Source: Patescibacteria group bacterium (GTDB lineage Bacteria; Patescibacteriota; Microgenomatia; UBA1400; PJMF01). From it: a DNA stretch of 64,000 bases. Both the position numbers and the translations under genes were made by a program. Position 1 is the first letter of the stretch. Each line of letters opens with the position of its first letter. The notes beneath the pieces were generated by a model. The model did no database searches. It saw nothing but the letters and a program-made list of their open reading frames with translations, and was not told the DNA's origin. This document shows, in pieces, positions 16,245-26,200 of the stretch. The stretch lies in the NCBI GenBank assembly GCA_023382875.1, contig JAHDXH010000001.1, positions 95,527 through 159,526 on the forward strand. Reading direction: 5' to 3'.

Positions 16245-17336
16245 ATGTTGAAGTTTATTCAAGTTAGCAAGCAATATCTGGATGATAAACCAGCCCTTGA
16301 GAATGTTTCTTTTGAAATTGATAAGGGTGAACTGGTTTTGATTACTGGTCCTTCTGGTTCTGGCAAAACTACCCTTTTGAAGCTTTTGACTAAGGAGCTC
16401 GAGCCAAGTGAGGGTGAAATTTTTTTTGGTGATCAAGATCTGGGTAAGCTAAAAAGATCAAAAATTCCTTATCACCGTCGCAAAATTGGTGCTGTTTTTC
16501 AAGACTACAAACTTTTACCAGAGTTAAATGTGTGGGAAAACATTGCTTTAGCTCTTTCTATTTTAGGTCACCCAGACAACGAAATTGAAGAAAAAGTTAC
16601 AGATTTGCTCAAGTTAGTAGGTTTAGCGGACAAAGCCTATCTTTTTCCCCATCAACTTTCTGGTGGTGAAGCTCAAAGAATTAGTATCGCCAGAGCTTTA
16701 TCAACCGCCCCTCAAATCATTTTTGCCGACGAACCCACTGGTAATCTCGATGCTGAAAACTCTCTCATCGTGGCCAAGTTGTTAAGAAAAATCAATGAGT
16801 TGGGCACGACTGTTATCGTTACTACCCACGACCCAGTGGTAATTAAATACCTAAATTTTGCTCATAAGATGACGATTGATAAAGGTACTTTGTTTGATGA
16901 AAGTGCTAAAAAACCCGTCAAAAAAGCTGAAGAAGTGAAAAAGGCTGAATCTAAAGAAGATCGCGACGACGATCGCAAAGACCACGATGATGGCCGAGAT
17001 GATCACGACGATGACAAAGAGGAAAAAACTGAGGCCAAGTCAGACAAATCAGACAAGTCAGGTGCTTCTAAAGAGCCAAAGGTCAAAAAACACTGGGGTT
17101 TCTTTGGAGTTTTCAAACATAAGGAAAAGTCGAGTCAACCAGAAAAACCAGAAAAAAATGACAGTCATGATGGCCATCATCACGACCATCACCATGACGA
17201 TCACCATGATCACATTGAAGTCGAATCTGAAGATTTAGACGAAGATGACAAAAATGACCAACATCAAGATAAAAAAGATACAAAATCCAAGTCAGACAAA
17301 TCAAAAGTAAAAAAACACGAGGAAAAGGAAGACTAA
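16245..17336 (+). CDS. ftsE: Cell-division ABC ATPase FtsE with a C-terminal acidic, His-rich low-complexity tail of about 140 aa
   Basis: Walker A is GPSGSGKTT, the signature is LSGGEAQRISIARAL and Walker B is IFADEPTGNLD. The tail contains KDHDDGRDDHDDDKEE... and DGHHHDHHHDDHHDH. Confidence 0.85.
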   Translation: MLKFIQVSKQYLDDKPALENVSFEIDKGELVLITGPSGSGKTTLLKLLTKELEPSEGEIFFGDQDLGKLKRSKIPYHRRKIGAVFQDYKLLPELNVWENIALALSILGHPDNEIEEKVTDLLKLVGLADKAYLFPHQLSGGEAQRISIARALSTAPQIIFADEPTGNLDAENSLIVAKLLRKINELGTTVIVTTHDPVVIKYLNFAHKMTIDKGTLFDESAKKPVKKAEEVKKAESKEDRDDDRKDHDDGRDDHDDDKEEKTEAKSDKSDKSGASKEPKVKKHWGFFGVFKHKEKSSQPEKPEKNDSHDGHHHDHHHDDHHDHIEVESEDLDEDDKNDQHQDKKDTKSKSDKSKVKKHEEKED

Positions 17337-17337
17337 G

Positions 17338-18207
17338 ATGAATCCACTTGCAACTGCCCTAGTCACGATGAGACGTTCACCCTATCAATCCTTGGTCTCG
17401 ATTGTTATTTTGACTTTTACTTTTTTTGTTGCCTATTGTTTCTCTTTTTTCTTAGCCGGCAGCGAAGCTGTATTACGCTTTTTTGAAACAAGACCTCAAG
17501 TAATTGCTTTCTTTGATATCAATGCTGGTTCTGAACAAATCAATCAAGTTGGTCAAGCCATGAAAGAAAAAAGTTATGTTTCTTCGATTAAAATTGTCAG
17601 CAAAGATGAAGCTTTGAAGATTTATCAAGACGAAAACAAAGATGATCCCCTTCTTTTAGAACTGGTGACGGCTCAAATTTTGCCAGCCTCCATTGAAGTT
17701 TCTGGTTATAACATTGAAGATCTCACCCAAATCAAGTCTGACCTATCTAGTTATGAAAAAATTGAAGAGGTAGTCTTGCAAGATAGCTTGGTTGAGTCTT
17801 TATCAGGTTGGACCAACTCAATTCGTTTAGTCGGTGGAGTCAGTGTTGTTTTACTGAGCTTAGTTTCGTTAATGATTATGGTGACGGTGATTGGTATGAA
17901 AGTAGTGGCTAAGAGACCGGCAATTAAAATTATGCGTTTGATTGGTGCTACGAGCTGGTTTATTCGTTCGCCATTTGTTTTTGAAGGCATTGTTTATGGT
18001 TTAGTTAGCTCCCTTTTGGGTTGGGGTTTGAGCTATGTTGCTCTCCTCTATATCACCCCCTGGTTAACTGAGTTTTTGGCTAATATTCCAATTTTCCCTA
18101 TTCCTCCAGCTTTTTATGCTCTCCAGCTGGGAGTAGGTACAGGGCTAGGTATGATGCTTGGCGCAATTGCTGGGGGTGTAGCTGTTGGTAGAATGATCAA
18201 AAAGTAA
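17338..18207 (+). CDS. ftsX: Cell-division permease FtsX
   Basis: The start overlaps the ftsE stop. The topology is one N-terminal TM, a periplasmic loop and three C-terminal TMs. Length is 289 aa, which is FtsX-sized. Confidence 0.8.
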   Translation: MNPLATALVTMRRSPYQSLVSIVILTFTFFVAYCFSFFLAGSEAVLRFFETRPQVIAFFDINAGSEQINQVGQAMKEKSYVSSIKIVSKDEALKIYQDENKDDPLLLELVTAQILPASIEVSGYNIEDLTQIKSDLSSYEKIEEVVLQDSLVESLSGWTNSIRLVGGVSVVLLSLVSLMIMVTVIGMKVVAKRPAIKIMRLIGATSWFIRSPFVFEGIVYGLVSSLLGWGLSYVALLYITPWLTEFLANIPIFPIPPAFYALQLGVGTGLGMMLGAIAGGVAVGRMIKK

Positions 18208-18220
18208 TAATTATTTACAG

Positions 18221-19450
18221 ATGAACTTTTTTCTTAGAACTACAATCTTTTCTCTTGTGCTCGGATTTTTTGCCTTTCTATTGCCTTTTAGTGTTCAAGC
18301 TCAAAGTTGTGAAAATGTGAAGTGTGATAGCAACAGCGATAATTATCTAACTTGTCTTAACGACAAACAGATTTGTCTTGAGGCAAAAATAGAAGAAACC
18401 AAAAAAGAAGCTAGCACACTTAAGAGTGCTATTAATATTTTTGATGGACAAATTAGTGTTTTACAGCTGCAAATTGATCAAAACGTTTATCAAATCAATA
18501 AACTTGAAAAGGAAATTAACGAGCTGGGCGATCGGATTGATGGACTCAATCTTTCCCTTGATAAATTATCGAGCATCATGGTTGAGAGAGTTGGTGAGCA
18601 TTATAAAAGAAATTACGATAGCCCTGTAGTTTTGTTCTTTGCTCAAGATAAATTTGCCAAATTGGTTAGTGAATATAAATCTCTTTCTTTGGCCAAAAAA
18701 CAAACTTTGGAAGCTATGGAAAAAGCCGAGAGTTTAAGACTTAACTATGATGAACAAAAACAAACCAAGGAAACTAAGCAACTTGAGCTAGAAAAGAAGA
18801 AAAAAGATTTGGATGGGAAAAAAAGAGAGTTAGCACAGCAACGAAGTAGCAAAGAAAACTTACTTCAACAGACAAAAAATAACGAAAAACTTTATCAGAA
18901 TCTTTTAGCCGAAGCTAAAGCTGAAGTGGCAAAATTAAAGAGTTTCACCGCCTCCAAAGCCGGCGGTGTTTTATCAGCCCAGAATAGTCCGGATGGTTGG
19001 TACTTCTCACAAAGAGATGAGCGTTGGGCAAATTATCGAATTGGCAATAGTTCTGAAATTATTTATGACGTTGGTTGTTTAGTTAGTAGCGTGGCAATGA
19101 TTAGAAAGAAATTTGGTGATGATGTAACCCCAATAACGATCGCTTCCAACAATAGTTTGTTTTTCTCTAACACAGCCAACATGATGTTGAGTAATCCGTC
19201 TTGGTCTGCACCATCTGGTTATCATTATGAACACTCTTCATATTCTCAATCAAAACTAGATCAGGAGTTGGAGAAAAATCCGGTGATTGTTAAATTGCTG
19301 GCTGGTTCATATGGCACTCATTTCATTGTTATTAAAGAGAAAAAAGATGGAAAGTATATTATTCATGATCCTTGGGAGGGTTATGATAAAAATTTCTCGG
19401 ATTTTTATTCAACTAGTCAAATTAGTAGAATCAGTTACTTAGTCAAATAA
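18221..19450 (+). CDS. Secreted coiled-coil protein with a C-terminal C39-like cysteine peptidase domain (PcsB/EnvC-like FtsEX partner)
   Basis: A signal peptide is followed by a 4-Cys N-terminal motif and a long coiled coil (LQLQIDQNVYQINKLEKEINEL...). The C-terminus YFSQRDERWANYRIGNSSEIIYDVGCLVSSVAMI ... GTHFIVIKEK...IIHDPWEG matches a Cys/His papain-like (C39_2/CHAP-type) fold. Confidence 0.6.
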   Translation: MNFFLRTTIFSLVLGFFAFLLPFSVQAQSCENVKCDSNSDNYLTCLNDKQICLEAKIEETKKEASTLKSAINIFDGQISVLQLQIDQNVYQINKLEKEINELGDRIDGLNLSLDKLSSIMVERVGEHYKRNYDSPVVLFFAQDKFAKLVSEYKSLSLAKKQTLEAMEKAESLRLNYDEQKQTKETKQLELEKKKKDLDGKKRELAQQRSSKENLLQQTKNNEKLYQNLLAEAKAEVAKLKSFTASKAGGVLSAQNSPDGWYFSQRDERWANYRIGNSSEIIYDVGCLVSSVAMIRKKFGDDVTPITIASNNSLFFSNTANMMLSNPSWSAPSGYHYEHSSYSQSKLDQELEKNPVIVKLLAGSYGTHFIVIKEKKDGKYIIHDPWEGYDKNFSDFYSTSQISRISYLVK

Positions 19451-19476: not shown

Positions 19477-20733
19477 ATGAGGTTTAAATTAATCTTAGTT
19501 AGCCTTTTCTTAAGCGTATTTTTTAACTTTACTTTTGTCAGTGTTGTAGCTGCTGCGGAATGCTCACAAACAGATTGTAGTTCTGTTGCCGAGAGTGAAA
19601 AACAAAACTGTTTGACTAAAAATATTCAGTGTCTAACTCAAAAAATTAGTGAAACCAAAACTCAGGCGGTGACTTTGCGTAATACGATTGCCATTCTTGA
19701 GCACGAAGTTTCAGTGCTTCAGCTCCAAATTGACCAAAGTTTATTTGAAATCACAGCCTTAGAAAAAGAAGTTCAGGCTTTGGGGGTGAGAATTGAACAG
19801 CTAAATCAAGATTTGGATAAGTTGGTGGATTATTTACTGGTTCGAGTGGTTGAACTCTATAAAAAAAGATTTATTACACCCCTCTCAATCCTATTTTCTT
19901 TTGAAAGTTTGTCGGATAAAGCGTCCAATTTACAGTATATAAAAATCACCCAACAGCAAGTGGCCAACAGTATGAGTCAGGCTGAGGATCAAAGGTTGGA
20001 ATTTGATAATCAAAAGAAACTCAAAGAACAAAAACAAAAAGAGTTGGAGGCAAAGAGAATTAAGCTTAATAGCCAGCAAAACGAATTGGAAGCCAAACAA
20101 CAACTTCAAGAAAACTTATTGAAAGAAACCAATCACAATGAGGCAGAATTCCAAAAGCAGCTAGACTCAGAAAAAGAAGAGTTCTTGGCTATTCAAGCCA
20201 TCTGTTCTGGTCAAGCTAATGAAGAAGAAATTAGGCATGTTTCCGCTGGAGAAAAAATTGCCACTTTGATTCAAGGTGCTTCATGTAACTCTGATGGCAC
20301 TCATTTGCATTTCTCTGTTCGGGAAAAGTCATTAAGTCCAATTACCAATAAAGATGAATATTTTTGTAAAAACCCTTTTAACTACCTGAAAAAAGAGGTT
20401 TCATTCTACAACTGCTCCACTAAGCTTGGTTGTAATCATCCAGATGGAGATCCATTTGTCCCCAGTGGGAGTTGGAACTGGCCGATCAATGAAACAATTT
20501 ACTTCTATCAAGGCTTTGGTTCAACATGGGCTGTTAAAAATGTTGATTGGCTACCATACGATTTCCACAACGGTTTAGATATGAGAGGTGATGGTCTTGA
20601 GGTAAAGGCGGTTCAATCAGGTACACTCTATCATGGTTACTACTCTGGCGGGGGTGGTTGTCAGCTTCCTTACGTCATAGTTCGCCATGATGACTCCAAC
20701 GTTGACTCTCTATATCTCCATGTTAATTATTAA
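19477..20733 (+). CDS. Secreted coiled-coil protein with an apparently circularly permuted M23 (LytM) metallopeptidase domain; paralog of 18221..19450 in its N-terminal half
   Basis: A signal peptide, a 4-Cys motif and a coiled coil align to the upstream gene. The M23 third motif VSAGEKIATLIQGASCNSDGTHLHF is at about aa 250-277. The M23 first and second motifs FHNGLDMRGDG...GGGGCQLPYVIVRHDDSNVDSLYLHV are at the extreme C-terminus. Confidence 0.6.
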   Translation: MRFKLILVSLFLSVFFNFTFVSVVAAAECSQTDCSSVAESEKQNCLTKNIQCLTQKISETKTQAVTLRNTIAILEHEVSVLQLQIDQSLFEITALEKEVQALGVRIEQLNQDLDKLVDYLLVRVVELYKKRFITPLSILFSFESLSDKASNLQYIKITQQQVANSMSQAEDQRLEFDNQKKLKEQKQKELEAKRIKLNSQQNELEAKQQLQENLLKETNHNEAEFQKQLDSEKEEFLAIQAICSGQANEEEIRHVSAGEKIATLIQGASCNSDGTHLHFSVREKSLSPITNKDEYFCKNPFNYLKKEVSFYNCSTKLGCNHPDGDPFVPSGSWNWPINETIYFYQGFGSTWAVKNVDWLPYDFHNGLDMRGDGLEVKAVQSGTLYHGYYSGGGGCQLPYVIVRHDDSNVDSLYLHVNY

Positions 20734-20774
20734 TATCCCATAAGTGTTGACACAAATAGGCTTATAATATATAA

Positions 20775-21053
20775 TTGGGTACTATAACTATGAATAAAAA
20801 CAAATTGTTCATCGCCATCTTATTAAGTTTTGCTATTTTTGGTTTTTCTTTTAGTGGTGTAGCCGCTGATACCTACGGTCAAGAAAATTGTACTTCTACC
20901 TATGGTCAAGCTGGTTGTATTACTTCTACCGAAGCTTCCAAGTCTGCCGTTTATTTGGCTGATACTGCCTTAGACACTCCTTCATTGATTGTCGCTGGTG
21001 GAGTCATGCTTAGCGGCATCGTCGCTTTGGTTCTCAAGAAAAAAATTGCTTAA
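20775..21053 (+). CDS. Small exported Cys-containing peptide with a sorting-signal-like C-terminus (candidate sortase substrate)
   Basis: A signal peptide is followed by a mature segment DTYGQENCTSTYGQAGCITS..., then LADTA, a hydrophobic stretch and KKKIA. The gene lies directly upstream of the sortase gene. Confidence 0.4.
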   Translation: MGTITMNKNKLFIAILLSFAIFGFSFSGVAADTYGQENCTSTYGQAGCITSTEASKSAVYLADTALDTPSLIVAGGVMLSGIVALVLKKKIA

Positions 21054-21099
21054 TTTTTACTAGATTTTTGTCTAGTTAGCTAAAAGTAGAATTCTGAAG

Positions 21100-21849
21100 A
21101 TGAGTTTGATTTACACTTCCTCTCCAGTAGTTCGCCGATCACCTAGTTACAAAAAAACTAGGCTGACTTTATTGGGTCAAAAGAAAAAGGTCGGAAATTT
21201 TCACAACAACAAATTAAGTAAAAAGTTGACCTCAGCCTTTTTAAGTCTGGTCATCGTTTTTTCACTGCTTTTTAGTGGTGTCTTCTTGATCCCAAAAATT
21301 GTTTACGCTTTTTACGATCCTAATACTTTAGTTTTGACTAACTCGGTCAACGAAACTGCTTTGGGTGGTGATGTGGAGTCTGGACCTAAACATTCTAGCT
21401 ATTTGCCAGAGATTAATGAAAATTTGCCTGAAGAAAATTGGTTAGAAATCCCCTTTATTGGCGTTAGGTCATTAATTCACGAAACAGTTGACCCAGAAGA
21501 AGCGCTTGATCAAGGTGTGTGGTTAGATCCTGCCTTTGGCGTGCCTGGTGAAGGCAAGACGGTGATTTTAGCCGCTCATCGCTATGGATGGAAATGGTGG
21601 TGGAAAGATGAATACTGGCGCTATAACTCATTTTATAACTTGCCTGAAACAGAGGTTGGCGATGTAGTTGAAATCACTTATGGTCAAAGAAAATTTGTTT
21701 ACGAAATTTACTTGGCCACTGAAGGTGAAGAGATTACGGACTTTAATGCTGACTTAATTTTGTACACCTGTAAGTATTTAGATTCGCCGATTAGATATTT
21801 CCGTTATGCTAGGTTAATCGATCCGACACAAGATAGTCAGAGCCTGTAA
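21100..21849 (+). CDS. Sortase family transpeptidase
   Basis: An N-terminal TM anchor is present. The catalytic triad context is His in ILAAHRYG, Cys in LILYTCKY and Arg in RYFRYARL. Confidence 0.7.
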   Translation: MSLIYTSSPVVRRSPSYKKTRLTLLGQKKKVGNFHNNKLSKKLTSAFLSLVIVFSLLFSGVFLIPKIVYAFYDPNTLVLTNSVNETALGGDVESGPKHSSYLPEINENLPEENWLEIPFIGVRSLIHETVDPEEALDQGVWLDPAFGVPGEGKTVILAAHRYGWKWWWKDEYWRYNSFYNLPETEVGDVVEITYGQRKFVYEIYLATEGEEITDFNADLILYTCKYLDSPIRYFRYARLIDPTQDSQSL

Positions 21850-22158: not shown

Positions 22159-22400
22159 AAGTGTTTAGGTGAAGTTGACGCCCAATAAATTGGTCTCAAG
22201 CACCGGATGAATCTTCTGGTTCATCTCATGCTGTAGATCAACAAGATCTCAGCGCTCTTTAAAAACATATTCAAAACTACGACTGGTTCACCAAGTGTCA
22301 TTTGTGGCCTTTGGTAAACCAGTTGTAGTGTGAGGAAATACCCGATCCCAACTGGTCGAAGTATCGAAGTCAAGTCAACCTATTCTCAAGGAGAACTGCT

Positions 22401-23141
22401 GTGAAGACGAAACTGTATTCCGTTCTGTTGGTGCTGGCTCTGCTGAGCCTGCTGGTGGTGCCTGCCGCTCAGGCACAGGACAATTCCGATGAGGTTTCTG
22501 GCGAAGGCTGGAGCATCACTGGCGATGTCCCCGAAGAAGTCGTCCCCAATAAGTGGGAACTGGAAGAGTCTGATGACGAATCCAGCATCTTGCCACAAGG
22601 CGGATGGATGTTCAATGCCGCCGGCGTTTTGAGTGCCGCCCGCTACGAAGACGCTGAAGCCAACGAATCGGCTGTCTGGTCTGGCGCTGGTGACGTTCAG
22701 GAACTGCTGGAAAACCGCACAGCCGAACTCATCCTGCCCGAAAGTGGCTACATGATGGTGGTCGGCGCGGGCTTCGATGTGACCTGTGGCGGCTATTCTG
22801 TCTCGTTGGAGCCGCAAGAAGACCACGCGTGGTTTCTCGTTTTGCGCGGACGCGCCGATGGTCGTGGTGACCGCAACGTGGTCTGCGAATTCAGCAATTA
22901 CACGGCGGGCGCCGTGTTAGTGACCATGTACGCTGTGCCGGTTCACGCCAGCGCGTTTTTCTCTGAAGGCTACCTCGCCGACAATATGGAAAACGCACGG
23001 GTGCGCAAGAACTGCGGCGCAACCGGTTGCTCGTACACCAGCGTGCTGGCCCTCGATGTGAACGATGGCGCTTACGGTGCATGGACGTATGGCGATGAGG
23101 AGTTTGAACTCGAAGTCACCAATGCGGTCATGCCTGAGTAA
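22401..23141 (+). CDS. Acidic secreted hypothetical protein encoded in a high-GC island (GTG start)
   Basis: The signal peptide is MKTKLYSVLLVLALLSLLVVPAAQA. AAGGAGA lies upstream. GC is about 60% with CTG/GCC-rich codon usage, unlike all neighbours. Shadow ORFs on the opposite strand are typical of high-GC DNA. Confidence 0.5.
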   Translation: MKTKLYSVLLVLALLSLLVVPAAQAQDNSDEVSGEGWSITGDVPEEVVPNKWELEESDDESSILPQGGWMFNAAGVLSAARYEDAEANESAVWSGAGDVQELLENRTAELILPESGYMMVVGAGFDVTCGGYSVSLEPQEDHAWFLVLRGRADGRGDRNVVCEFSNYTAGAVLVTMYAVPVHASAFFSEGYLADNMENARVRKNCGATGCSYTSVLALDVNDGAYGAWTYGDEEFELEVTNAVMPE

Positions 23142-23186
23142 TCAGCCCCCGGACGGTCTGCCCCCACAATTGAATATGTTCAACTT

Positions 23187-23213
23187 TCTCCTCGGGCCCC
23201 AAACCCGAGGAGA
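23187..23213 (+). terminator. GC-rich hairpin tctcctcggg/cccgaggaga downstream of the island gene
   Basis: A perfect 10-bp inverted repeat with a 7-nt loop is present. No clean U-tract follows. Confidence 0.35.
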
Positions 23214-23255
23214 ATACTTGTGTTCATCTCTTTAAACAGTTAATCTTAAGTAGAG

Positions 23256-26200
23256 GTGAATAGAAGTATTCTCACCGAAGTATTCATGAAGAAAGCTCTG
23301 CCCCACTTTACTAAATTCGGTGATTGGTTTTTTCAAAAGCTTAAGATTCACTATCCCCTATTAATTGTCCTAAGCATCGCTTTAATTATTGCTGCCAAAA
23401 ACATTGGTTTTAATCAGTGGTATTCTGGCTGGGATAATTTGCACGGCGAGTTTGATTTAAGTCGTTACACGAGCCAAGTTTTGGGTGGAGCATGGTTGGA
23501 GCATCAAGGTTTAGGTGCACCGATGAATTTGGCGCACTTGGCCGAGGTGTCACGTTTGCCGATTCTGTGGCTGTTAGCGACTGTTTTGCCTGATCATTTA
23601 ATTAGAATTACTTTTATTTTTTTGATGTACACCATAGGTGGCATCAGCATGTACTTTTTTCTTTCCCAGGTTTGGGTTGATCATCGCTTGGGCGCAGCTA
23701 AGAACTGGGTGGCAGCTCTTGGTGGAGTTTTATATCTTCTTCACATTTTGACTTTGCAGCAGTTTTATATTGCTTTTGAAATGTTCACGGTTCAATTTGC
23801 TTTTTTGCCTTTATTGTTTTTGATAGTTCACCGTTTCAGAAAGAAAGTTTTGGCGCCAACTGTTGTTTTATTTGCTGGATTGCAAATGCTTTTAGCACCC
23901 AGTGGTCATACGCCAACCAATTTTTATTTGGCGGTTTTGAGTTCACAGGTTTATGGTTTTTTCTTACTTTTACCAAAAGGACTGATGAAGGCATTAAAAA
24001 CGGCTTTTGTGATTGGCCTTTTGACTTTTGTTATTAATAGTTATTGGATTGTCCCCAATCTTTATTACACTTTCCATAACGCTCATTACGTTCAAGAAAG
24101 CCATGATAATCAACTATTTGCTCCTGAATCGGTTTCCAGTATTAGAGAGGCTGGAACTTGGCAAAATTTTCTTAAAGGCACGCAGTATTTGTTGGAATGG
24201 AAAGATTACGATTTTGAAACCAAGCAACTGGAGCTGATTTTTAACGATTGGCAAGAGCATTTGAATTTGCCGTATGTTCAGGTAATGTTGGTGGGAATTA
24301 GTTTGTTTACTATTTTTGGTTTGTTGACAGTTATTTTTAATCGGCGCAAAGGGACAAAGAGATGGGCAATTGCTTTGATTTATGTGGGCTGCGTGAGTTT
24401 TATTTGGATGGGTCTTTTCCCCAGTGGCTGGTTGTTTGAAAAACTTTATCAAGTTGGTTCGTTTACTGAAGCTTTTCGCAATCCTTTTACTAAACTTTCA
24501 ATTATTTATTCAGTAGTGTCGGTGATTTTATTTGTCAGTTTTTGGGAAGTATTGCTTTTGAAGATAAAGAAACACTTTAGGCCAGCGATAGTTTTACTTT
24601 TGATGGTGGCTATTGGCTATACGGTTTGGCCAAGTTTTGAAGGTCACTTTATTAGTGAAAAATTAAAAGTTCAGTATCCTAGTCAATACTTTGAGATGTT
24701 CGCTTTTTTGAGAAAAAAAGATCCACAGCTAAGAATTCTACCTCTACCTCAGCTTAACCACGCGGGTTGGGAATATTTTGATTGGCAGTTTTTGGGCAAA
24801 GGTAATGGTTATCAAGGAATGGGTTTTTACTTTTTTGGTGTGCCGCAGCCAGTTCTCCATCGCGACTCCGACCGTTGGGTGGAAACTTCAGATTTTTTCT
24901 TTCATGAGTTGAAGTACGCGCTCGATAGTCAGGATCTGAATTTATTCAACCAGGTAGTGGAAAAATATAAAATCGACCTGATTTTGATCGACGAAACTAG
25001 AGTTGACCCAAGTCGAGTGGTTGATTTTTCAACTCAGCACCAATTGGCTAAATTAGCTGGCTTTAGCAAAATTTGGCAGTTGGATTTTTTGAGTATTTAC
25101 CAAAAACCCACCCCCAATGCAGAAAGTAAGCTATTAATTCCACCTACGATCAATAAAGTTGACACTAACGCTAATCGAGTAATTTTTGACGCTGCATTTA
25201 AAGAGCAAAAAGATTATTTGTTAGATAAAAAGGACGCCGGTGTTAGTTATCCTCTGGCTGAATTATTGACCAAGCAAGTTGACAACATTGTTTATGCTGA
25301 TGATCACATTAGTTTAACCAAAAAGTTACCAGACAATTTTAGAGGTGAAGTCAATCTTAAAATTCCTGACCTGATGTCTAGTGTTGTGCCGGTGGCAGTT
25401 TCATATCACCAGGGCGAACTGGTGGTGGCTTTTCCAAAAACTGAGTTAAGATTTACAGATCAAATTATTGAACTTCCTCATTTGGAAAACCAAAACTTTG
25501 TCATTCCTAATGCTCCAGCTTCATTATTAGTTTTATTTGACAATCAAGTTGTTACAGTTGGTGAGGGTCAAACAAGCTATCAAGTTTTGAATATTAAAGA
25601 CAATAATTCACTCAAGCTAAGTTTTGCTGTTCAACCTGCTGTTTTGCCCAAAACCCAAGATGGTTTTATTGATGGCTCTAGGTTGGAGATCAATGATTTG
25701 GCTGAGATCGGGGTGAGCCACAAACTTTGGGAAGAAGAAACAAAAAGAGTCGAATTAAATGGTAGTTTGACTGTGGTAACTACTTTCCCATTCAAAAAAT
25801 TAAACATTACTGAGAATCCATCACAAAACTGTTCAAAACCGGAGCGTGGTTCTATTTCTACCAGACAAAGTTTAACTGACAAAAGTGTTTTATATACGGC
25901 AGATTCTTATGGAGTGAACTGTAACGGTTTGTCTCTAATTGATACGAGTAGTTGGGAAGATTATTTGCTCAGAGTGGTTGGTGAAAACCATGAGGGTCGT
26001 GGACTGAAGTTTTTCATTAATCGTAGCAAAACTACCTTGCCCGATGATTATATTTTTTCCACCGCTCAGTATGATTCTGCCATTACTCTTCACGGTCTTT
26101 TTTCATTACCAGAAACTGCTTTGAGTATGAATTGGGAAGCAAGATCGTTGGGCATGAAAACAGTTTCTAGTCTCAATCAAATGTTGCTTTTGCCTGTGCC

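What the first reader, a model, noticed from the sequence alone, without database searches (positions are those of the whole stretch)
19477..20733. Apparently circularly permuted M23/LytM domain
The canonical M23 order is HxxxD, then GGYGN-like strand/H, then GQxIGxxGxTGxSTGPHLHF. Here the third motif (VSAGEKIATLIQGASCNSDGTHLHF) occurs first, at about aa 250-277. The first and second motifs (FHNGLDMRGDG...GGGGCQLPYVIVRHDDSNVDSLYLHV) sit at the extreme C-terminus, after a Cys-rich insert of about 85 aa. The protein ends right after the YLHV element. That is what a circular permutation predicts.
Basis: seen in the sequence. Interest (0 to 1): 0.68.

Follow-up and report, generated by a model that had tools for sequence, protein, structure and literature searches.

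The report
Circularly permuted M23 cell-wall peptidase
This gene encodes a cell-wall-cutting zinc peptidase (M23/LytM type) whose two sequence halves are in swapped order; the swapped form is conserved in over a hundred sequence clusters, the identified ones from tiny uncultured Patescibacteria, sits next to the FtsEX cell-division genes, and was not found described in the literature searched.

Summary
ORF 19477..20733 (+, 418 aa) has a signal peptide, an EnvC/PcsB-like coiled coil (aa ~39-243) and a C-terminal M23 domain in swapped order. The HxH half (aa 248-305) comes first. The WP..HxxxD..His half (aa 333-418) comes last, and the protein ends 3 residues after the third catalytic His.

Moving the last segment to the front in silico turns two Pfam M23 stretches into one full-length match with a higher score. 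All 71 aligned relatives, and 143 of 143 classifiable permuted-family sequences, share the same breakpoints. All five catalytic/zinc residues are conserved. A cysteine pair, one in each half, is present together or absent together (65 both, 6 neither, 0 single).

ftsE-ftsX lie directly upstream in 70-72 of 80 related genomes, all named ones Microgenomates-group Patescibacteria, and in three more distant members.

About 55 of those residues are ordinary M23 core, and the true linker is about 27 aa here and 4-6 aa in minimal members.

None of 43 solved M23 sequences has this order, none of 75 classifiable viral M23 loci does, and no paper found describes it. NCBI calls the protein "hypothetical". 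A 3D superposition could not be run. Verdict: real, a new variant of a known kind.

The parts
16245..17336 (+). ftsE (ABC ATPase), with an unusual ~145-aa K/E/D/H-rich C-terminal tail
   Evidence: Pfam ABC_tran E=8e-37. Translation. An ftsE homologue lies upstream of the permuted-M23 gene in 70 of 80 related loci.
17338..18207 (+). ftsX (permease-like, with extracellular domain)
   Evidence: Pfam FtsX_ECD E=6e-15 and FtsX E=8e-12. An ftsX homologue lies upstream in 72 of 80 related loci.
18221..19450 (+). Paralogous coiled-coil protein with a C39-like (papain-fold) cysteine peptidase domain in place of M23
   Evidence: Pfam Peptidase_C39 E=6.9e-6. Its coiled coil is 36% identical to that of the M23 protein over 245 aa, E=3e-39. 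It is absent from the 80 related loci. It is present upstream of the P0022 orthologue and in independent assemblies.
19477..20733 (+). Gene for the coiled-coil / circularly permuted M23 peptidase (418 aa plus stop)
19477..19554 (+). Signal peptide (aa 1-26, MRFKLILVSLFLSVFFNFTFVSVVAA)
   Evidence: Read from the sequence. The model has a helix at aa 4-18 followed by coil. Assigning it as a signal peptide is an inference.
19591..20205 (+). EnvC/PcsB-like antiparallel coiled coil plus a final conserved helix (aa 39-243; helices 39-61, 67-129, 145-218, 222-243)
   Evidence: AlphaFold2 full-length model, pLDDT 90.6. Foldseek top hits are EnvC in the FtsEX complex 8tzl_E (E=2.4e-5) and 6tpi_A, followed by RipC 8idc_E and PcsB 4cgk_A.
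20218..20391 (+). Old C-terminal half of M23, now first (aa 248-305). It holds the GD-box-like hairpin, Cys270, H276-L-H278-F and the NPFNYL tail.
   Evidence: Aligns to 9gy1_A 100-128. H276 is invariant and H278 is conserved in >=90% of 71 sequences.
20329..20367 (+). Lineage-specific 13-aa insertion (aa 285-297, SLSPITNKDEYFC)
   Evidence: Present only in the window protein, P0001 and P0022.
20392..20472 (+). Linker joining the old C-terminus to the old N-terminus (aa 306-332, contains C313 and C319)
   Evidence: The HxH-to-WxWP distance is 53 aa here and 18-24 aa in minimal members, which read NPxxxL-GGxF-RWPL.
20473..20730 (+). Old N-terminal half of M23, now last (aa 333-418). It holds WNWPI...QGFG, H364-NGL-D368, the GGGGC395 loop and YLH415VNY, followed by the stop codon.
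   Evidence: Pfam profile 2-53/96. Aligns to 9gy1_A 41-91. H364, D368 and H415 are invariant in 71 sequences.
20747..20775 (+). Perfect sigma-70-like promoter match (TTGACA-17-TATAAT) just after the stop. It probably starts a separate unit for the sortase and its substrate.
   Evidence: 12 of 12 consensus matches. This is a consensus match only.

Best explanation
The gene encodes a secreted, catalytically competent M23 (LytM-type) zinc peptidoglycan peptidase whose catalytic domain is a true circular permutant. The chain is cut in the loop just after the strand carrying the third catalytic His. The segment that normally follows (GD-box-like hairpin, HxH strand, NPxxYL tail) now sits at the start of the domain. 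[quoted passage not shown] The two halves reassemble into one M23 active site (H364, D368, H278 as zinc ligands; H276 and H415 as catalytic residues), stapled in most members by a disulfide between Cys270 and Cys395. The domain hangs on an EnvC/PcsB-like coiled coil and is encoded immediately after ftsE-ftsX. It therefore most likely works like PcsB, RipC or CwlO. The coiled coil would dock on the FtsX extracellular domains, and FtsE ATP binding and hydrolysis would switch the hydrolase on at the division site of a monoderm-like Patescibacteria cell.

Shown: the permuted order, its conservation, conservation of the catalytic residues, the ftsEX linkage, and the EnvC-like coiled-coil fold of the model.

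Inferred: reassembly into one domain, the disulfide, enzymatic activity, and FtsEX control.
For: Permutation:
- Pfam and PDB sequence matches are non-colinear.
- De-permuted constructs give single full-length matches with higher scores for the window protein and two distant relatives.

Conservation:
- The profile search gave 1546 hits at E<=1e-3 and 71 at E<=1e-30. All 117 classifiable sequences among the first 158 retrieved are permuted.
- All 71 aligned members share the same breakpoints.
- H276, H364, D368 and H415 are invariant, and H278 is conserved in >=90%.

Contact between the halves:
- The Cys before HxH and the Cys in the GGYGN-type loop occur together in 65 of 71 sequences, neither occurs in 6, and one alone in 0.
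- The full-length AlphaFold2 model has pLDDT 90.6, with 88-98 in the C-domain.

FtsEX coupling:
- ftsE and ftsX are directly upstream in 70 and 72 of 80 loci. Seven of the 8 loci without ftsX are cut by the contig end; L035 has 6 kb of upstream DNA and no match.
- The same linkage holds in the distant loci L082, L090 and L092.
- Foldseek top hits of the full model are EnvC in FtsEX complexes, RipC and PcsB.

Origin:
- Among the canonical sequences retrieved, the nearest relative in the de-permuted core tree (P0242, Patescibacteria) has the same TKNxExxYQ coiled-coil motif followed by a normal-order M23.
Against: - No 3D superposition on LytM or lysostaphin was possible.
- Foldseek, which aligns sequentially, found no significant M23 structure with the C-domain model. 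This is what a permutant would give, but an imperfect model would give the same result.
- The first C-domain model was only moderately confident (pLDDT 78.6).
- The Cys co-occurrence is not corrected for phylogeny.
- No biochemical data exist.
- Binding to FtsX is inferred from gene order and fold only.
Confidence: 0.8

Rival explanations
1. Intermolecular complementation: the two halves do not fold back on each other within one chain. The first half of one protomer would pair with the last half of another, giving a domain-swapped dimer on a dimeric coiled coil. On this reading the permutation reflects an obligate dimeric enzyme.
For: Coiled-coil hydrolases can dimerise. PcsB (4cgk_A) is among the fold hits, and it crystallised as a dimer (my own knowledge). 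Sequence data alone cannot separate intra-chain from inter-chain pairing of the conserved residues and the Cys pair.
Against: The AlphaFold2 monomer model is confident for the whole C-domain. Minimal members join the halves with only 4-6 residues. Short secreted proteins carry the permuted domain without any coiled coil, so a stand-alone monomeric domain is the simpler reading.
Confidence: 0.07
2. Non-catalytic activator: like EnvC, the domain does not cut peptidoglycan itself but uses its groove to activate another hydrolase under FtsEX control.
For: The overall architecture and the top structural matches are EnvC. A second hydrolase gene (C39-like here, CHAP in L090) sits in the same operon.
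Against: EnvC-type LytM factors have lost the catalytic residues (PMC7668044). Here H276, H364, D368 and H415 are invariant, and H278 is conserved in >=90% of 71 diverse sequences. Most of the 80 related loci have no second hydrolase gene of the window's type in the operon.
Confidence: 0.08
3. Not a functional permutant: the two M23-like pieces are decayed remnants of a tandem duplication, an assembly or frameshift artefact, or chance matches.
For: The window protein's own Pfam score is modest (33.5 bits), and NCBI annotates it as hypothetical.
Against: The identical protein occurs in 8 cluster members from independent assemblies. More than 140 homologues share the same breakpoints and the same position of the stop codon. 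The catalytic residues are invariant. Distant members score 74-81 bits against Pfam M23.
Confidence: 0.02

Closest known systems
Canonical M23/LytM peptidases (LytM, lysostaphin, ShyA, MepM, Csd3; Pfam PF01551)
   Same: Same sequence motifs (HxxxD, HxH, third His, GD-box-like hairpin, WP..FG N-terminal strand, NPxxYL tail). Each occurs once and all catalytic residues are conserved.
   Different: The order of the two halves is swapped. All 43 solved M23 sequences match the permuted profile non-colinearly or through only one half, and none is colinear with it. All 75 classifiable viral M23 loci have canonical order.
EnvC (E. coli, V. cholerae, P. aeruginosa), the FtsEX-bound coiled-coil LytM factor
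   Same: Signal peptide, long antiparallel coiled coil, C-terminal M23-type domain, and a gene next to ftsEX. EnvC is the best structural match (8tzl_E, 6tpi_A).
   Different: The EnvC LytM domain has canonical order, is catalytically dead and activates amidases. It is blocked by a ~50-residue restraining arm (PMC7668044). Here the domain is permuted, keeps all catalytic residues, and only a ~22-residue helix (aa 222-243) precedes it.
PcsB (CHAP), RipC and CwlO (NlpC/P60): FtsEX-controlled coiled-coil hydrolases of monoderm and mycobacterial cells
   Same: A coiled coil plus a catalytically active hydrolase domain, used directly by FtsEX. There are fold hits to PcsB 4cgk_A and RipC 8idc_E. Distant members hit Pfam CC_PcsB.
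   Different: The catalytic domain is a metallopeptidase of the M23 family, not a cysteine peptidase.
Known circular permutations in related settings: NlpC/P60 (YaeF and LRAT families) and barrel-sandwich-hybrid (HABAS) domains
   Same: Cell-wall hydrolase superfamilies and the fold class that includes M23 are known to tolerate circular permutation (PMC6403190; PMC11515920).
   Different: Those permutations are in other families, or between families of the fold. No paper found reports one inside the M23 family.

Membership tests
Peptidase family M23 (PF01551) | Significant match to the family profile above the curated cut-off | tested here: met
   33.5 bits against a cut-off of 28.7, E=5.1e-8. 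Distant family members reach 74-81 bits.
Peptidase family M23 (PF01551) | HxxxD and HxH zinc-binding motifs plus the third catalytic His | tested here: met
   H364/D368, H276/H278 and H415. Four are invariant and H278 is conserved in >=90% of 71 sequences.
Peptidase family M23 (PF01551) | Canonical linear order: N-terminal strands, HxxxD, third His, GD-box hairpin, HxH | tested here: not met
   The order is hairpin-HxH first and HxxxD-His last. De-permutation restores a single colinear match.
Peptidase family M23 (PF01551) | M23 three-dimensional fold with one zinc site | tested here: inconclusive
Peptidase family M23 (PF01551) | Zinc-dependent peptidoglycan endopeptidase activity | not testable with these tools
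   Needs biochemistry.
FtsEX-associated coiled-coil hydrolase/activator (EnvC, PcsB, RipC, CwlO class) | Secreted protein with a long antiparallel coiled coil N-terminal to the hydrolase-type domain | tested here: met
   Model helices 39-61, 67-129 and 145-218. Foldseek hits to EnvC, RipC, PcsB and RipA.
FtsEX-associated coiled-coil hydrolase/activator (EnvC, PcsB, RipC, CwlO class) | Conserved genetic linkage to ftsE-ftsX | tested here: met
   Seen in the window, in 70-72 of 80 loci, and in L082, L090 and L092.
FtsEX-associated coiled-coil hydrolase/activator (EnvC, PcsB, RipC, CwlO class) | Physical binding of the coiled coil to the FtsX extracellular domain and ATP-dependent activation | not testable with these tools
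   Inferred from gene order and fold only.
EnvC proper (murein hydrolase activator) | Degenerate LytM domain lacking catalytic residues | tested here: not met
   The catalytic residues are intact and conserved. NCBIfam EnvC model PRK11637 does not match the window protein at E<=0.01, and reaches only 55.5 bits in the relative P0011 against a cut-off of 270.

The most novel reading that the evidence does not exclude
The permutation is a mechanistic adaptation rather than a neutral rearrangement. It moves the junction between coiled coil and catalytic domain to the loop next to the third catalytic His, at the edge of the active-site cleft, and it leaves a free C-terminus 1-3 residues after that His in most members. 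This would let FtsEX-driven motion of the coiled coil, acting through a shortened restraining helix (aa 222-243), pull directly on the active-site hairpin. The result would be a direct mechanical gate on an active M23 enzyme, distinct from the groove-plugging arm of EnvC. The permuted domain then spread as a module into short secreted proteins.
Probability: 0.25. Interest if true: 0.75.

Novelty: new variant of a known kind. Interest (0 to 1): 0.6.

Why it matters
M23/LytM domains are among the best-studied cell-wall hydrolase and regulator modules (lysostaphin, LytM, EnvC, NlpD, ShyA). All 43 solved sequences examined here have one chain order.

A large, conserved, apparently active permuted clade has three consequences.
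- It explains why these proteins are annotated as hypothetical or get only faint or partial M23 hits, and it calls for a dedicated profile.
- It identifies the likely FtsEX-controlled division hydrolase of Microgenomates-group Patescibacteria, organisms whose cell division is almost unstudied.
- It offers a natural experiment on how FtsEX mechanotransmission reaches a catalytic domain, because the attachment point of the coiled coil has moved next to the active site.
- It also adds a within-family case to the known tolerance of the barrel-sandwich-hybrid fold for circular permutation.

Tried and rejected
- **Foldseek, C-domain model against PDB:** no significant hit and no M23 entry among the 50 rows shown. 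This is uninformative, because sequential aligners are defeated by permutation and that model was only pLDDT 78.6.
- **Foldseek, full-length model against BFVD viral structures:** only coiled-coil noise.
- **Model coordinates:** not exposed in /data, so no permutation-aware superposition or inspection of the active site and restraining helix was possible.
- **Literature:** searches for permuted M23 or LytM returned only permutations in NlpC/P60 and in HABAS domains.
- **NJ tree of de-permuted cores:** 142 of 143 permuted sequences are adjacent. One (P0128) and four canonical sequences interleave. This is consistent with a single origin, but 126 columns without bootstrap is too weak to prove it.
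- **Restraining-arm length, permuted against canonical:** only one valid canonical comparator (P0242) was available, so the "shortened arm" idea remains an inference.
- **Rejected, frameshift or assembly artefact:** the identical gene appears in independent assemblies, and the stop position is conserved.
- **Rejected, an 85-aa Cys-rich insert as such:** most of it is M23 core.

Full report
**What is there**

The finding's coordinates match one ORF, 19477..20733 on the + strand, 418 aa. It is the fourth gene of a tightly packed + strand run:
- ftsE, 16245..17336 (ABC_tran, E=8e-37)
- ftsX, 17338..18207 (FtsX_ECD and FtsX)
- a 409-aa coiled-coil protein with a C39-like cysteine peptidase domain, 18221..19450
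- this gene

A perfect sigma-70-type promoter match lies just after its stop codon. It precedes a small protein with a sortase-type sorting signal and a sortase gene. NCBI holds the identical protein as MCL4208123.1, "hypothetical protein [Patescibacteria group bacterium]". The same gene arrangement occurs in independent assemblies.

**Checking the observation**

- Pfam M23 matches above its curated cut-off (33.5 against 28.7 bits, E=5.1e-8) in two stretches. Here aa 363-417 matches the first half of the profile, positions 2-53 of 96.
- Against the solved M23 peptidase 9gy1_A, query 363-416 aligns to chain 41-91 and query 253-283 aligns to chain 100-128. The order is reversed, and only 8 chain residues lie between the two pieces.

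**Direct test of permutation**

I moved the last segment in front of the first in silico.
- For the window protein, Pfam then gives a single stretch covering profile 2-91/96, at 44.1 bits against 36.4 native.
- Two distant relatives behave the same way: P0116 goes from 73.9 to 82.7 bits with profile 2-96/96, and P0128 from 80.6 to 88.7 bits.
- Against PDB, the de-permuted window sequence aligns as one stretch to 9gy1_A 41-128, with E=4.8e-7 instead of 0.0073.

The 83 residues between HLHF and FHNGLD are not all insert.
- NPFNYL (aa ~299-304) is the usual M23 C-terminal tail.
- WNWPI...QGFG (aa 333-348) is the usual N-terminal strand region. The equivalent segment of the family profile aligns to the residues before HTGID in solved structure 6muk_A.
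- In minimal family members the old C- and N-termini are joined by only 4-6 residues (NPRNTL-GGIF-RWPL in P0116).
- The HxH-to-WxWP distance runs from 18 aa in those members to 53 aa here.
- The window lineage therefore has a ~27-aa linker (aa 306-332, with C313 and C319) and a private 13-aa insertion (aa 285-297), shared only with P0001 and P0022.

**A family, not a one-off**

- A profile search of 1.84 billion representative proteins gave 1546 hits at E<=1e-3, 202 at E<=1e-10 and 71 at E<=1e-30. The top hits are mostly ~400-aa proteins matched through to their last residue.
- All 71 full-length members I aligned are permuted and end 50-63 aa after HxGxD, mostly within 1-3 residues (at most 5) of the third His.
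- Of the first 158 sequences retrieved, all 117 that could be classified are permuted.
- H276, H364, D368 and H415 are invariant, and H278 is conserved in at least 90%. That is the full M23 catalytic set. It argues for an active enzyme, unlike EnvC.

**Evidence that the two halves touch**

One Cys lies in the loop before HxH (C270 here) and one in the GGYGN-type loop (C395 here).
- Both are present in 65 of 71 sequences.
- Both are absent in 6.
- One alone never occurs (Fisher p=7e-9, not corrected for phylogeny).

A disulfide between the two sequence-distant halves is the simplest reading.

The full-length AlphaFold2 model is confident (pLDDT 90.6, pTM 0.74, C-domain blocks 88-98). It places every M23 element in a strand exactly once. 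From what is known of the M23 fold, the de-permuted strand order matches the canonical one.

**Context and likely function**

- A scan of one genome per species returned 80 loci. All informatively named ones are Microgenomates-group Patescibacteria: Woese-, Levy-, Roizman-, Blackburn-, Beckwith-, Davies- and Gottesmanbacteria.
- ftsE and ftsX lie directly upstream in 70 and 72 of the 80 loci. Seven of the 8 loci without ftsX are truncated by contig ends; L035 has 6 kb of upstream DNA and no match.
- Distant, minimal-linker members show the same linkage: L082, L092, and L090 where the gene precedes ftsEX.
- The best PDB matches of the full-length model are EnvC in the V. cholerae FtsEX-EnvC complex (8tzl_E, E=2.4e-5) and EnvC bound to the FtsX periplasmic domain (6tpi_A). 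RipA, RipC in Mtb FtsEX (8idc_E) and PcsB (4cgk_A) follow.

The protein therefore has the architecture and genomic position of an FtsEX-controlled coiled-coil cell-wall factor. Because its catalytic residues are intact, it should work like PcsB, RipC or CwlO, which are direct hydrolases. EnvC, by contrast, is a dead LytM domain that activates amidases and is held off by a ~50-residue restraining arm (PMC7668044). Here only a 22-residue conserved helix (aa 222-243) precedes the domain. Whether that helix gates the cleft is an inference I could not test.

**Origin and spread**

In a neighbour-joining tree of de-permuted cores, 142 of 143 permuted sequences are adjacent. Among the canonical sequences retrieved, the closest are from Patescibacteria. 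One of them, P0242, has the same TKNxExxYQ coiled-coil motif followed by a normal-order M23. This fits derivation from an EnvC-like ancestor within this group, with one or few events. The tree is too weak to prove a single origin.

The permuted domain also occurs without a coiled coil in short secreted proteins (P0164-P0167, P0178, P0180, P0192). One is from Berkelbacteria and two carry PEP-CTERM-like tails.

None of the 75 classifiable loci among the best 80 viral M23 hits is permuted. None of the 43 solved M23 sequences is colinear with the permuted profile.

**Novelty**

Full-text searches for permuted M23 or LytM found nothing on this. They turned up only the known permuted NlpC/P60 families (PMC6403190) and circular permutation among barrel-sandwich-hybrid (HABAS) domains, the fold class that includes M23 (PMC11515920). 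No NCBIfam model names the family. I rate it a new variant of a known kind.

**Side observation on the operon**

The upstream C39-like paralogue shares the coiled coil (36% identity, E=3e-39). That coiled coil is closer to the single coiled-coil/permuted-M23 protein of the nearest relative, L061 (51%), than the window's own M23 protein is (44%). The tandem pair also exists in the genome carrying P0022, but in none of the 80 genome loci. This looks like a duplication followed by a catalytic-domain swap, giving one FtsEX two different hydrolases. L090 pairs the permuted M23 with a CHAP protein in a similar way.

Noticed in passing
window 18221..19450 (+): A paralogous coiled-coil protein with a C39-like (papain-fold) cysteine peptidase domain sits between ftsX and the permuted-M23 gene. 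Its coiled coil is closer to the single M23 protein of relative L061 than the window's own M23 protein is. It is absent from 80 related loci but present upstream of the P0022 orthologue. This looks like a catalytic-domain swap after duplication, giving one FtsEX two hydrolases. Locus L090 similarly pairs the permuted M23 with a CHAP protein.
   Followed up: partly
window 22200..23400: GC content spikes to 0.49-0.60 against a background of ~0.38. The spike coincides with ORF 22401..23141 (246 aa, signal peptide, no Pfam hit). The same gene is present in independent assemblies L087 and L088. It may be a horizontally acquired gene.
   Followed up: no
window 16245..17336 (+), aa ~220-363: FtsE carries a ~145-aa low-complexity K/E/D/H-rich C-terminal tail, including HDGHHHDHHHDDHHDH. 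The FtsE of relative L061 has a similar charged tail. Typical FtsE proteins are ~220-230 aa.
   Followed up: no
window 20747..21849 (+): A perfect TTGACA-17-TATAAT promoter match lies at 20747-20775. It is followed by a small secreted protein (ORF 20775..21053, likely true start ATG 20790) that ends in LADTALDTPSL, a hydrophobic stretch and KKKIA. This is a sortase-type sorting signal with LADTA in place of LPXTG. A sortase gene follows at 21100..21849. The same pair is conserved in L061, L084 and L085.
   Followed up: partly
loci L081, L082 (proteins P0164-P0167, P0178, P0180, P0192): The permuted M23 domain also occurs in ~170-250-aa secreted proteins without a coiled coil. P0166 is from Berkelbacteria. 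P0164 and P0165 end in PEP-CTERM-like tails. In L082 such a short protein lies about 1.2 kb downstream of an ftsE-ftsX-coiled-coil/permuted-M23 operon.
   Followed up: partly
window 19561..19634 and 18302..18376 (aa 29-52 of each coiled-coil protein): Both coiled-coil proteins start with a four-Cys motif (C-x4-C-x10-C-x6-C here), shared with L061 and about a dozen family members. It probably forms two disulfides at the N-terminal end of the coiled coil.
   Followed up: no
loci L006, L008, L009 and many others (CAY*/CAZ* records): Many public MAG records titled "uncultured Gammaproteobacteria bacterium" carry this Microgenomates-type ftsEX/permuted-M23 operon. Their taxonomic labels are probably wrong.
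   Followed up: no
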